A stretch of DNA of 64,000 nucleotides from Escherichia coli. Its GTDB lineage: Bacteria; Pseudomonadota; Gammaproteobacteria; Enterobacterales; Enterobacteriaceae. The position numbers were made by a program. The stretch is taken from the NCBI RefSeq assembly GCF_002854065.1, contig NZ_CP024147.1; one strand, written 5' to 3'. Shown piece after piece: positions 52,505 to 55,500 of the stretch. The stretch's first letter is position 1, and each line of letters begins with the position of its first letter.

Positions 52505-55500
52505 TCTGATGAAAGCGGTTGATAAGTTCGAATACCGCCGTGGTTACAAATTCTCCACCTACGCAACCTGGTGGATCCGTCAGGCGATCACCCGCTCTAT
52601 CGCGGATCAGGCGCGCACCATCCGTATTCCGGTGCATATGATTGAGACTATCAACAAGCTCAACCGTATTTCTCGCCAGATGCTGCAAGAGATGGGCCGC
52701 GAGCCGACGCCGGAAGAGCTGGCTGAACGGATGCTGATGCCGGAAGACAAGATCCGCAAAGTGCTGAAGATCGCCAAAGAGCCAATCTCCATGGAAACGC
52801 CGATTGGTGATGATGAAGATTCGCATCTGGGGGATTTCATCGAGGATACCACCCTCGAGCTGCCGCTGGATTCTGCGACCACCGAAAGCCTGCGTGCGGC
52901 AACACACGACGTGCTGGCTGGCCTGACCGCGCGTGAAGCGAAAGTTCTGCGTATGCGTTTCGGTATCGATATGAACACCGACCACACGCTGGAAGAAGTG
53001 GGTAAACAGTTCGACGTTACCCGCGAACGTATCCGTCAGATCGAAGCGAAGGCGCTGCGTAAACTGCGTCACCCGAGCCGCTCTGAAGTGCTGCGTAGCT
53101 TCCTGGACGATTAATCGGTAGGCTGGATCAGGCGTTACGCCGCACCCGGCACCTGTCCCTTTGCACAAACGCCACCTTTTCGGTGGCGTTTTTTATCGCC
53201 CACGCACCACCAGCGCCTGGTCCAGCTCGCGATACGCTTCAACCAGTTTCTCCAGTGAAACGCGACTTAAACCGCTGGGATTTGGCAGCACCCAAATCTG
53301 CGTCGAACCAATGCTGAGCGTTTGTTTCCCCCACTGTGCACCGCGCTGGCTGAATCCCTGTTCATATGCTTGTTTGCCCAGAATCGCCAACGCTTGCGGC
53401 TGATAATCTTCAATTTTTTCAATCAGCTTACGCCCACCTGCGTGTAGCTCTTGCTTTGAAATTTCATTGGCTTTCACCGTTGGACGGTCTACCAGTTTGG
53501 TGACGCCACAACGATAATCCAGCAGATGCTGTGCCTCCTGCGGCTTCAACTGACGGTCGGTAAACCCGGCCTGATATATCACCTTCCAGAAGCGATTTGC
53601 CGGATGAGCAAAGGGAAAACCAGTCCCGGCGGATGAAAGCCCAGGGTTGATACCGCAAAACACGACCCGTAACCCTGGAGCCAAAATATCCTCAACCATA
53701 TTTACTCCTTTCTAACATCACCAGGAAAAGTATAACGGATTGAAAATACATTGTTTATAAAAACAGCAGGCGCGCGGTAATGGCTGGATTGCGACACGGA
53801 GTTACTTTATAATCCGCTACCATGGCCCCTTAGCTCAGTGGTTAGAGCAGGCGACTCATAATCGCTTGGTCGCTGGTTCAAGTCCAGCAGGGGCCACCAG
53901 ATATAGCAAAGGGTTAGCTAATAAATCAGCTAACCCTTTTTCTTTTGCCTTTGAATTGGGTCAGGTAATGGGTCAGGTAAGCTTTTTCTCCATCTGACTC
54001 AGATGGCTGATAGTTGCCCCGGATAATACTTCGCAATGATGTCATTTAGCCGATCAACCAGTTCTGGTTTTCTGAACGTGATATGCGCGGAGCCCTTCTT
54101 AAAGTATCTGATGCTGAACATCTCATCTTCATAGCAGGCTTTGCCCTGAACGGAGCGGATGTGATCATCCAGCCGAATAATGATATTTTCCCGGCTGTCG
54201 GGGATCGGTTTGCCGCTGAACAGGTGCAGCATTCTTTCCAGGTCGGCAAGTCGATCTGCCTGTTGCCCGGTGATAAGATGCAATCCCCACCGGTCCCACC
54301 TCACCAGATTGTTGACGATAATTTTACTGCCAAATTTACAGGGGCAATTGGTTTTGTAATCCCAGCTCAGTCCCCTGAAGACGTTGATGACCCCACGCTC
54401 AAACACTTCATCCTTATTCTGGTGTAGTTGCTCAAACGTACTCAGTATATTCTCTTCACTGATTTCCGGAAAATTATCGTACTCCAGTGACCGGTACCAT
54501 GTACCACGGGCCTGTGCATCCATTAAGGAAAGCATCCCTGAACGTTGCATCAGGTCACGCCAGATTTCACGGTCAAGGTTGCGGGTGATGGCTTTCATTG
54601 CCGTTTCAGGTTTCTCCATCAGCCAGCAACCGCAGCGAAAATCCTGTTTCATGGCCCAGTCCGGAGCAGTTTTACCTCCAATACTTTCTGTCATTGCTGA
54701 TATTTCAGCCAGTTGCCGGATAAGTGTGTCGATTTGCAGCAGTGTGCTCTTTCGTACAGCCAGAATGTGGCGGATACTGGTTGAGCAGATAACGTCCGTA
54801 TGCCCGTTGACCACTTCCGGACGGGCGATTGTGATGCCTGACATAATCGGTTTTCCTTTCTGTTTATAAATGAAAACGCCAGCCGTATTCAGGCTGGCGT
54901 CGGGGGAATGAAGTGTGGTGAGAAAGATAATGAGTGAAACTCACCGGTTCAGGTGCTGAAACTGCAGATGGCGCAGAGTTCGGACATCCTGTCGCGCCTG
55001 TTCGATACAGGGCAACAGTGCTGCCGAATCCGTTTTATCCTCATCGTTGTCAAAGATAATTTCCGATTCGCAGTCAATATTGTCCTGCAGCCACGCAATC
55101 AGAATATCCAGCGCCGTTTCTGTGGTTAATAATTTCATCCAGTGTCTTTTGTCCTGATTACCAGTCGAAAGTGGGGAACCCCGGCAGACATTCTGCGCTG
55201 GCGTCCAGATGAATGAGACTGACGCCATAACGCCGGGTGAGTGTGACAACCAGACGACGGAACGTTTTTGACAGGCCCAGGCGCTTAAGCCGCAGAACCG
55301 GGTATGACCACGCATCGGTACGTAACAGATAGCCGCTACCTGTGAAATGAATCCATTCTGATTCACCAACGTCACTGGTCTGGTGTGACAGCGAGTGCAA
55401 CCAGGCGTTGTCCGTTTCCGTGATATGTGCGGTACTGCAGCGTATGCCGGCAAGGGTTGCAAATGGCGGAGGTGTTCAGGTTGACTGTTGGTCGGATTCC

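What the first reader, a model, noticed from the sequence alone, without database searches (positions are those of the whole stretch)
53958..53980. Tandem 12-bp repeat at the tRNA-island junction
gggtcaggtaat-gggtcaggtaag lies directly after the ileX terminator and just before the first island gene stop. It could be a junction scar or a recombinase half-site pair.
Basis: seen in the sequence. Interest (0 to 1): 0.2.

Follow-up and report, generated by a model that had tools for sequence, protein, structure and literature searches.

The report
Integrase arm-site pair beside ileX
The tandem 12-base repeat is real and is most likely a pair of accessory ("arm-type") docking sites for the integrase of a genomic island inserted in the ileX tRNA gene, an ordinary, long-known feature of phage-P4-like integration systems.

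Summary
TGGGTCAGGTAA occurs twice in exact tandem at window 53957-53980. It is the only exact tandem duplication with a unit of 9 bases or more in the 64 kb.

It is not a junction scar and not a core half-site pair. The island (DUF4942, CbtA/CbeA, RadC, Ag43 and more) recombined inside the ileX anticodon loop. The 3' part of the tRNA gene, the terminator (53908-53939) and the repeat are therefore on the island side of the junction.

Island-free E. coli (K-12, and CUWW06, which is 100% identical in the flank) lack the repeat. In E. coli ZJ3920, which carries the same island, the identical pair recurs at the far end, 47 nt upstream of a 438-aa tyrosine integrase that has an Arm-DNA-binding domain.

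The 23-mer gave 69 hits in public genome and viral collections. All sit in one of these two contexts, at fixed distances from the anticodon loop (103-104 nt and 128 nt). Elements whose integrase is only about 57% identical carry GGTGAYGTA in both arms instead.

Phage P4's annotated "attP arm sequence repeats" have the same layout. I conclude it is an integrase arm-type site pair of the int-distal arm: a new member of a known kind, of low interest. Binding itself has not been tested.

The parts
53824..53899 (+). ileX, tRNA-Ile2 gene (anticodon CAT). It is intact, and its sequence from the anticodon stem/loop onward lies within the att identity block.
   Evidence: ARAGORN; annotated tRNA-Ile in E. 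coli genomes; 100% identical to the K-12 gene.
53853..53912 (+). The att identity block: 60 bp shared between this junction, the empty site, and the integrase-side junction of the same island in ZJ3920. The probable crossover lies in the anticodon loop CTCATAA, 53855-53861.
   Evidence: Three-way alignment of the window, island-free CUWW06 and the ZJ3920 integrase-end junction. The partial tRNA copy starts at GACTCATAATCGC. In tandem or secondary contexts the identity starts at CTCATAA.
53908..53949 (+). Island-side intrinsic terminator for the reconstituted tRNA: AAAGGGTTAGCT-aataaatc-AGCTAACCCTTT followed by a T-run. It replaces the native GGCTGACGA-gaaa-TCGTCAGCC hairpin.
   Evidence: Terminator scan. 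The native hairpin is seen in K-12 and CUWW06, and at the integrase end of the ZJ3920 island.
53957..53968 (+). Putative arm-type integrase site, copy 1 (TGGGTCAGGTAA), on the int-distal arm.
53969..53980 (+). Putative arm-type integrase site, copy 2 (TGGGTCAGGTAA), on the int-distal arm.
53999..54844 (-). The last island gene at this end, a DUF4942 protein. It is cargo or backbone, not part of the recombination site, and it marks how short the arm is.
   Evidence: ORF list; Pfam PF13708, E = 3.6e-69.
54845..64000 (-). Island backbone, continuing beyond the window end: CbtA/CbeA toxin-antitoxin, DUF987, RadC-like JAB, antirestriction protein, DUF932, an Ag43-type autotransporter and a GTPase. 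The integrase end is not in the window.
   Evidence: Pfam; homologous annotated island in ZJ3920; 97-98% identical modules in many E. coli.

Best explanation
The two TGGGTCAGGTAA copies are a pair of arm-type (accessory) binding sites for the N-terminal arm-binding domain of the island's P4-like tyrosine integrase. They lie on the integrase-distal arm of the attachment site.

The island integrates by strand exchange in the anticodon loop of tRNA-Ile(CAU). It brings its own copy of the tRNA 3' part and its own terminator, and 103 nt from the loop it brings this site pair. An identical pair sits on the other arm, 47 nt upstream of the int start codon and 128 nt from the displaced partial tRNA copy, with an IHF-consensus site in between.

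In the excised circle (attP) the two pairs flank the core. Integrase protomers would bridge arm sites and core sites to build the recombination complex, as in lambda and P4. In the integrated state the window's pair would be used for excision.

What is shown: the sequence anatomy, absence from empty sites, presence at both ends, fixed spacing, co-variation with the integrase, and an arm-binding domain in the integrase. What is inferred: physical binding, and a requirement for recombination.
For: 1. Island-specific. Absent from K-12 and from CUWW06, whose flank is 100.0% identical over 9.9 kb.
2. Both ends. In E. coli ZJ3920, which carries the same island at ileX, the identical tandem pair is at L003 11132-11155. 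That is next to the integrase start and 128 nt before a partial ileX copy followed by the native terminator.
3. The ZJ3920 integrase (438 aa) has Pfam Arm-DNA-bind_3 (E = 5e-15) plus the Phage_integrase catalytic domain.
4. The exact 23-mer was found in 30 stretches of genome contigs (including Escherichia albertii, Enterobacter, Siccibacter, Citrobacter, Kluyvera, Kosakonia, Brenneria, Providencia, Vibrio and Salinivibrio) and in 39 viral contigs. All 69 fall in just two contexts: 42 int-distal, at 103-104 nt from the loop, and 27 int-proximal, all at 128 nt.
5. A survey that did not use the motif. Among loci found through the integrase protein, all 21 with Int at least 84% identical carry the pair 53-54 nt into the printed region upstream of int. 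Twenty are exact [T/C]GGGTCAGGTAA pairs and one (L091) has a mismatch in copy 1. More distant integrases carry other tandem 11-12-bp pairs at the same place: GGTGAYGTA, TTAGTGTCG, GGGTCAAGTAA, GGTGACAGTT.
6. Concerted switch. Elements with about 57% Int identity target the same tRNA and use a nearly identical terminator, yet carry GGTGAYGTA repeats in both arms. L158 and L190 are on one contig.
7. Phage P4's GenBank record annotates 12-bp 'attP arm sequence repeats' in the same layout: an inverted copy at the int ATG, a tandem pair, the core, then a tandem pair. P4 Int is a distant homologue (22% identity, E = 2e-15).
8. An IHF-consensus match lies at one fixed offset in 28 of 31 int-proximal spacers, against 1.2% of shuffled spacers.
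9. Published precedent for arm-type sites in P4-type and other heterobivalent integrases, and for their requirement: PMC11963761 (IntS, five arm-type motifs needed for efficient integration) and PMC2951348 (IntS of KplE1).
Against: - There are no binding or recombination data for this motif.
- The integrase end of this particular island lies beyond the window, so both-ends symmetry is shown only in related genomes.
- A co-evolving island-encoded partner, such as the AlpA-family candidate excisionase found in ZJ3920, could in principle be the binder instead of Int.
- The pairs on the two arms have the same orientation. That differs from lambda but matches P4.
- No sigma-70 consensus promoter was detected around the int-proximal pair, so an operator role there is not supported by the scan.
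Confidence: 0.8

Rival explanations
1. The pair is a binding site for the island's recombination directionality factor (an AlpA/Vis-type excisionase), not for the integrase.
For: The homologous island in ZJ3920 encodes a 75-aa Phage_AlpA-family protein. Excisionases commonly bind tandem direct repeats. An element-encoded partner would also co-vary with the element.
Against: Identical pairs lie on both arms with rigid spacing, whereas excisionase sites are as a rule confined to one arm (established knowledge from lambda and P4, not tested here). The layout equals the P4 repeats annotated as attP arm repeats. The pair tracks integrase identity classes in a survey seeded on the integrase.
Confidence: 0.08
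2. The pair is a junction scar or a slippage duplication with no function, such as a target-site duplication or a remnant of imprecise recombination.
For: It is a perfect tandem duplication close to an island end. Copy number varies between elements, from 2 to 4, which shows that slippage does occur here.
Against: The motif is absent from attB, so it is not a target duplication. It is conserved base-for-base in 69 loci across several families of Gammaproteobacteria while the flanks diverge, and it is always at a fixed distance from the core. It is present at both ends. Both arms are replaced in concert in a sister family.
Confidence: 0.02
3. The pair is a set of core-type half-sites, the place where the recombinase cuts.
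For: It lies near the visible end of island-specific sequence.
Against: The copies are direct, not inverted, and have no spacer. The block of identity between the two island junctions is 53853-53912 and starts at the anticodon stem/loop, about 100 nt upstream. In other contexts the left boundary of identity is exactly CTCATAA.
Confidence: 0.02
4. The pair is a transcription signal or operator for a neighbouring gene (the 3' end of the DUF4942 gene, or tRNA read-through) and is unrelated to recombination.
For: It lies between a terminator and a gene end. In P4 and KplE1, arm sites next to int also act as operators (PMC2951348 and its reference 44).
Against: Here the pair is downstream of both convergent genes, not at a promoter. 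Cargo next to the pair differs between elements while the pair is constant. An operator role is plausible only for the int-proximal copy, which is outside the window.
Confidence: 0.05

Closest known systems
Satellite phage P4 'attP arm sequence repeats' (annotated in GenBank NC_001609; I attribute their first description to Pierson & Kahn 1987 from memory)
   Same: The layout is the same: 12-bp units; a tandem pair just upstream of the int start; a second tandem pair in the same orientation on the other side of the core; and an extra inverted copy at the int ATG, also seen in the ileY-type subfamily here. The target is a tRNA gene, and the integrase has an arm-type DNA-binding domain.
   Different: The motif differs: TTGGGGGCAYAA-like in P4 against TGGGTCAGGTAA here. 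The integrases are only 22% identical. P4 uses the 3' end of leuX, whereas this family uses the anticodon loop of tRNA-Ile(CAU). The element here is a CP4-like island with no P4 replication or capsid-hijacking genes in the parts seen.
Lambda Int arm-type sites P1, P2 and P'1-P'3
   Same: Accessory sites on both arms, distinct from the core sequence and roughly 100-150 bp from the crossover. There is an IHF-consensus site between the arm sites and the core on the longer arm. The concept is summarised in PMC2951348.
   Different: The sequence is unrelated. Lambda has 2 + 3 sites with opposite orientation between arms, and its Int N-domain belongs to another family. Lambda's attB is not a tRNA gene.
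IntS arm-type sites P1-P5 of ICEMlSymR7A, a P4-type integrase targeting a tRNA gene
   Same: Short repeated arm motifs within a ~283-bp attP of a P4-family integrase, shown to be required for efficient integration (PMC11963761).
   Different: The motif (TGKTGGTATC), the number of sites (five), the host and the element type (a conjugative ICE) all differ.
IntS arm-type sites of the KplE1 prophage at argW
   Same: Arm-type sites lie next to int and overlap its promoter, giving autoregulation (PMC2951348). That is a plausible second role for the int-proximal pair here, which lies 47 nt from the ATG.
   Different: That role concerns the integrase-side arm, which is not in the window. No consensus promoter was found there.

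Membership tests
Arm-type (accessory) integrase-binding sites of heterobivalent tyrosine integrases | The element encodes a tyrosine integrase with an N-terminal arm-binding domain. | tested here: met
   The integrase of the same island in ZJ3920 has PF13356 Arm-DNA-bind_3 (E = 5e-15) plus PF00589. The integrase of the window's own island lies beyond base 64000 and was not seen.
Arm-type (accessory) integrase-binding sites of heterobivalent tyrosine integrases | A repeated motif, different from the core sequence, is present on both arms flanking the core. | tested here: met
   Identical pairs at both island ends in ZJ3920. Of the 69 collection hits, 42 are int-distal and 27 int-proximal.
Arm-type (accessory) integrase-binding sites of heterobivalent tyrosine integrases | The motif belongs to the element and is absent from the empty bacterial site. 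| tested here: met
   K-12 and the near-isogenic CUWW06 lack it.
Arm-type (accessory) integrase-binding sites of heterobivalent tyrosine integrases | The motif keeps a fixed position relative to the core and co-varies with the integrase. | tested here: met
   Spacing is 103-104 nt in 42 of 42 hits and 128 nt in 27 of 27. Motif classes follow integrase identity classes, and both arms switch together.
Arm-type (accessory) integrase-binding sites of heterobivalent tyrosine integrases | The integrase N-domain physically binds the sites, and they are required for recombination. | not testable with these tools
   Needs EMSA or footprinting and att-site mutagenesis.
P4-type attP architecture | Tandem 12-bp pairs in the same orientation on both sides of the core, one of them directly upstream of int. 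| tested here: met
   P4 annotation and sequence compared.
P4-type attP architecture | The integrase is a close relative of P4 Int, and the arm motif is shared with P4. | tested here: not met
   22% identity, and the motifs are unrelated. It works like P4 but belongs to a different integrase and arm-site lineage.
Core-type recombinase half-sites | Inverted repeats flank a 6-8-bp overlap at the crossover point. | tested here: not met
   The copies are direct and abutting, and lie about 100 nt from the identity block and anticodon loop.
Target-site duplication / junction scar | The sequence derives from the empty site, with one copy at each element end or an irregular remnant. | tested here: not met
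   It is not present in the empty site. It occurs as a conserved tandem pair at each end.
Excisionase (RDF) binding sites | Tandem sites are confined to one arm, between the core and the outer Int sites. | tested here: inconclusive
   Pairs occur on both arms, which argues against this. A candidate AlpA-family RDF does exist, and binding cannot be tested here.

The most novel reading that the evidence does not exclude
The TGGGTCAGGTAA pair marks a widespread, apparently undescribed lineage of integrative elements, from Enterobacterales to Vibrionaceae, that target the anticodon loop of tRNA-Ile(CAU). Within the broader integrase clade, the arm-site word switches in both arms together with the integrase N-domain (GGTCAGGTA, GGTGAYGTA, GGTCAAGTA, GGTGACAGTT and others). 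That would amount to a readable 'arm code', usable to predict att arms and integrase/arm cross-compatibility between co-resident or tandem islands.
Probability: 0.4. Interest if true: 0.3.

Novelty: new member of a known kind. Interest (0 to 1): 0.15.

Why it matters
Mostly for annotation. It places the true island boundary inside ileX, not after its terminator. It shows that the terminator now serving ileX came with the island. It also identifies the cis-elements that excision or mobilisation of this Ag43/CbtA-carrying island would need.

The 23-mer is a precise marker for both ends of this island family at ileX and ileY in E. coli and its relatives. It does not challenge any current concept.

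Tried and rejected
- A literature search for the motif string returned only unrelated primer-type hits.
- Searches for ileX islands and for arm-type sites of P4-like integrases found no description of this site. The paper on P4 Int autoregulation (PubMed 16847139) is not held.
- The consensus promoter scan found nothing at the int-proximal pair, so the operator idea remains untested.
- Exact-pattern scans for the variant pairs GGGTGATGTAGNRGGTGACGTAA and GGGTCAAGTAACGGGTCAAGTAA returned one match per contig. For the first, these contigs include three of the integrase-seeded loci, so those are int-proximal copies. The distal arm of the GGTGAYGTA family had to be found with a tRNA-anchored gapped pattern. 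The distal arm of the GGGTCAAGTAA family was not pursued.
- I first suspected the window was not E. coli, because the junction matched at only 96%. That was rejected: the flank is 100% identical to E. coli CUWW06, and the differences lie in the island-borne terminator and the island genes.
- My script's ATG-distance column was confounded by an internal CCAT and is not used.

Full report
**Observation**

Window 53957-53980 reads TGGGTCAGGTAA-TGGGTCAGGTAA, an exact tandem duplication of 12 bases. It is the only exact tandem duplication with a unit of 9-12 bases in the 64-kb window. No 12-base one appeared in 100 shuffles, and the analytic expectation is 0.004. With up to one mismatch the 12-mer occurs nowhere else in the window.

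**Surroundings**

- The genes are rpoD (51273-53114, +), mug (53193-53699, -), and a tRNA with anticodon CAT at 53824-53899 (+). E. coli annotations call this tRNA tRNA-Ile, i.e. ileX.
- A terminator-like hairpin with a T-run follows at 53908-53949.
- The repeat starts 8 nt after that. Eighteen nt after the repeat is the stop codon of a DUF4942 gene on the minus strand, 53999-54844.
- Downstream, all on the minus strand, lie CbtA/CbeA toxin-antitoxin, DUF987, RadC-like, antirestriction, DUF932, an Ag43-type autotransporter and a GTPase. This is the usual "CP4-like" island backbone, 97-98% identical to modules in many E. coli.
- The chromosomal flank 44000-53900 is 100.0% identical to E. coli CUWW06.

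In K-12 and in the near-isogenic CUWW06, ileX is followed directly by a different terminator hairpin (GGCTGACGA-gaaa-TCGTCAGCC) and then nfeF. Neither has the 12-mer. The window departs from the empty-site sequence at 53913, inside the terminator stem.

The window stops inside the island. E. coli ZJ3920, however, carries the same island at ileX, with a junction 96% identical to the window's and the repeat identical.

- The ZJ3920 island is about 29 kb and ends with a 438-aa tyrosine recombinase next to nfeF.
- The same TGGGTCAGGTAA x2 lies 47 nt upstream of the integrase ATG, in the same orientation as in the window.
- 128 nt further on is a partial ileX copy beginning GACTCATAATCGC, in the anticodon stem/loop. 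It runs to the 3' end and is followed by the native K-12-type terminator.

The island therefore recombined within the tRNA gene. The block shared by both junctions corresponds to window 53853-53912. In other genomic contexts the left edge of identity is exactly the anticodon loop, CTCATAA. Everything to the right of the loop at the ileX junction is on the island side: the tRNA 3' part, the new terminator and the repeat.

**Distribution**

The exact 23-mer GGGTCAGGTAATGGGTCAGGTAA occurs in 30 stretches of a one-genome-per-species collection. These include Escherichia albertii, Enterobacter, Siccibacter, Citrobacter, Kluyvera, Kosakonia, Phytobacter, Buttiauxella, Brenneria, Cedecea, Providencia, Vibrio and Salinivibrio. 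It also occurs in 39 viral or prophage contigs. All 69 hits fall into exactly two contexts:

- 42 are "int-distal": tRNA-Ile 3' part, terminator hairpin, T-run, then the pair, with 103-104 nt from the first base of the anticodon loop to the motif.
- 27 are "int-proximal": int ATG, the pair, then exactly 128 nt to the partial tRNA copy.

The cargo next to the int-distal pair varies, and the hairpin sequence varies with compensatory changes. The pair itself does not vary. That last point is by construction of the search, so a survey not seeded on the motif was also run.

**Survey seeded on the integrase, not the motif**

Loci were retrieved with the ZJ3920 integrase protein, and the region upstream of each int was read.

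| Integrase identity to ZJ3920 | Loci | Tandem repeat upstream of int |
|---|---|---|
| At least 84% | 21 | [T/C]GGGTCAGGTAA x2 at a fixed position (20 exact pairs; L091 has one mismatch in copy 1; one locus with 3 copies and one with 4) |
| 57-58% (same tRNA-Ile target) | 3 | GGGTGATGTAG-CAGGTGACGTAA |
| 45% | 2 | TTAGTGTCGTT x3 |
| 36-41% (another tRNA target) | many | GGGTCAAGTAA x2, GGTCAGGTWG-type pairs and other pairs |
| 35-36% | several | GGTGACAGTT x2 |

A tRNA-anchored gapped search then recovered the int-distal arm of the GGTGAYGTA family. After a nearly identical tRNA 3' part and terminator, the TGGGTCAGGTAA pair is replaced by AGGTGATGTAG-TGGGTGACGTAA, with a third copy 9 nt later. 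One contig holds both arms of this type, L158 and L190. Both arms therefore change their word together with the integrase. That is what is expected of sites read by an element-encoded protein, and not of a scar or a host-factor site.

**The reader protein**

- The ZJ3920 integrase has Pfam Arm-DNA-bind_3 (PF13356) in front of the catalytic domain.
- 28 of 31 int-proximal spacers carry an IHF-consensus match at one fixed offset, against 1.2% of shuffled spacers. This fits a bent-arm recombination complex.
- The island also encodes an AlpA-family protein, a candidate excisionase and the main rival binder.
- Identical pairs on both arms speak for the integrase, because excisionase sites are normally confined to one arm. 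That rule is established knowledge and was not tested here.

**Comparison with what is known**

The GenBank record of satellite phage P4 annotates 12-bp "attP arm sequence repeats" in the following order: an inverted copy over the int ATG, a tandem pair 16 nt upstream of int, the 20-bp core 113 nt further on, and a second tandem pair 54 nt beyond the core, in the same orientation. That is the layout found here. It includes the extra inverted copy (TTACCTGACCC) seen in the ileY-targeting subfamily.

The P4 motif (TTGGGGGCAYAA-like) is unrelated, and P4 Int is only 22% identical. This is therefore a different lineage with the same mechanism, not P4 itself. Arm-type sites of another P4-type integrase, IntS of ICEMlSymR7A, are required for efficient integration (PMC11963761). 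Arm-type sites next to int can also act as operators (PMC2951348). ileX is listed as an insertion site of E. coli pathogenicity islands (PMC7545054). I found no paper describing this motif.

**Verdict**

The reading as a "recombinase site pair" is right in spirit, but these are arm-type sites, not half-sites, and "scar" is wrong. The most likely function (confidence about 0.8) is a pair of integrase arm-type sites on the int-distal arm. They would be used with the matching pair next to int to assemble the integration and excision complexes. Binding and requirement are inferred, not shown, and the integrase end of this particular island is outside the window.

This is a new member of a well-known kind of feature and of low interest. 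Its value is correct annotation of the island boundary and of the cis-elements for island mobility.

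Noticed in passing
window 53908-53949, compared with L001 1708-1745 and L195: The terminator now serving ileX came with the island. It has the same flanks (GATATAGCAAAGG ... 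TTTTTCTTTT) but a different hairpin stem and loop from the native one, which sits at the other island end next to nfeF. Across genera the island-borne hairpin varies with compensatory stem changes.
   Followed up: partly
L057/L084 (3 copies); L039/L093 (4 copies): The int-proximal array varies in copy number: 2, 3 or 4 perfect 12-mers. This suggests replication slippage at the arm sites. The effect on recombination is unknown.
   Followed up: no
L005 2983-2993, L006 2983-2993, and most loci with about 85% Int identity: The subfamily that inserts at the second tRNA-Ile(CAU) gene (next to ypjC, i.e. ileY in E. coli) has an additional inverted copy, TTACCTGACCC, between the int ATG and the tandem pair. 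This mirrors the inverted arm repeat at the int ATG of P4. The ileX-type arm lacks it.
   Followed up: partly
L015 3500-4773 (also L052, L067, L174, L191: '...atggtt|CTCATAATCGC'): In several genomes the int-distal arm is preceded not by the tRNA 5' half but by the 3' end of a different 345-aa tyrosine-recombinase ORF. This implies tandem accretion of two unrelated elements at the same tRNA-Ile anticodon-loop site. Other left flanks (gttcgga, attggga, gtaggaa, cactgta and others) suggest still more partners.
   Followed up: partly
L010 (Escherichia albertii NBRC 107761), tRNA upstream of position 473: The reconstituted tRNA carries an island-type T-arm (gttggttcaaacccaac instead of gctggttcaagtccagc) and ggggctacca in the acceptor 3' strand. 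Island insertion therefore changes the sequence of the expressed tRNA-Ile2.
   Followed up: no
L003 11156-11283 and 31 int-proximal spacers: A conserved IHF-consensus match (YAANNNNTTGATW, the reverse complement of WATCAANNNNTTR) lies 52 nt after the pair in 28 of 31 spacers, against 1.2% of shuffles.
   Followed up: yes
L006 1-280 (E. coli ECNB21-M121): The ileY-type element with the same arm sites carries a retron Ec78 PtuB effector gene near its integrase. Elements of this family therefore also act as carriers of anti-phage defence genes. ZJ3920's ileX island carries a type I restriction-modification system.
   Followed up: no
window 54941-55510 (-): This 189-aa ORF (GTG start) has no Pfam match. 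The corresponding ZJ3920 region is annotated as separate DUF957 and DUF5983 genes, so the mechanical ORF call probably does not correspond to the real genes.
   Followed up: no
L195 (E. coli CUWW06, NZ_CP182139.1 4009000-4052000): This strain's flank is 100.0% identical to the window over 9.9 kb, but its ileX site is empty. It is a natural isogenic control for acquisition or loss of the island.
   Followed up: partly
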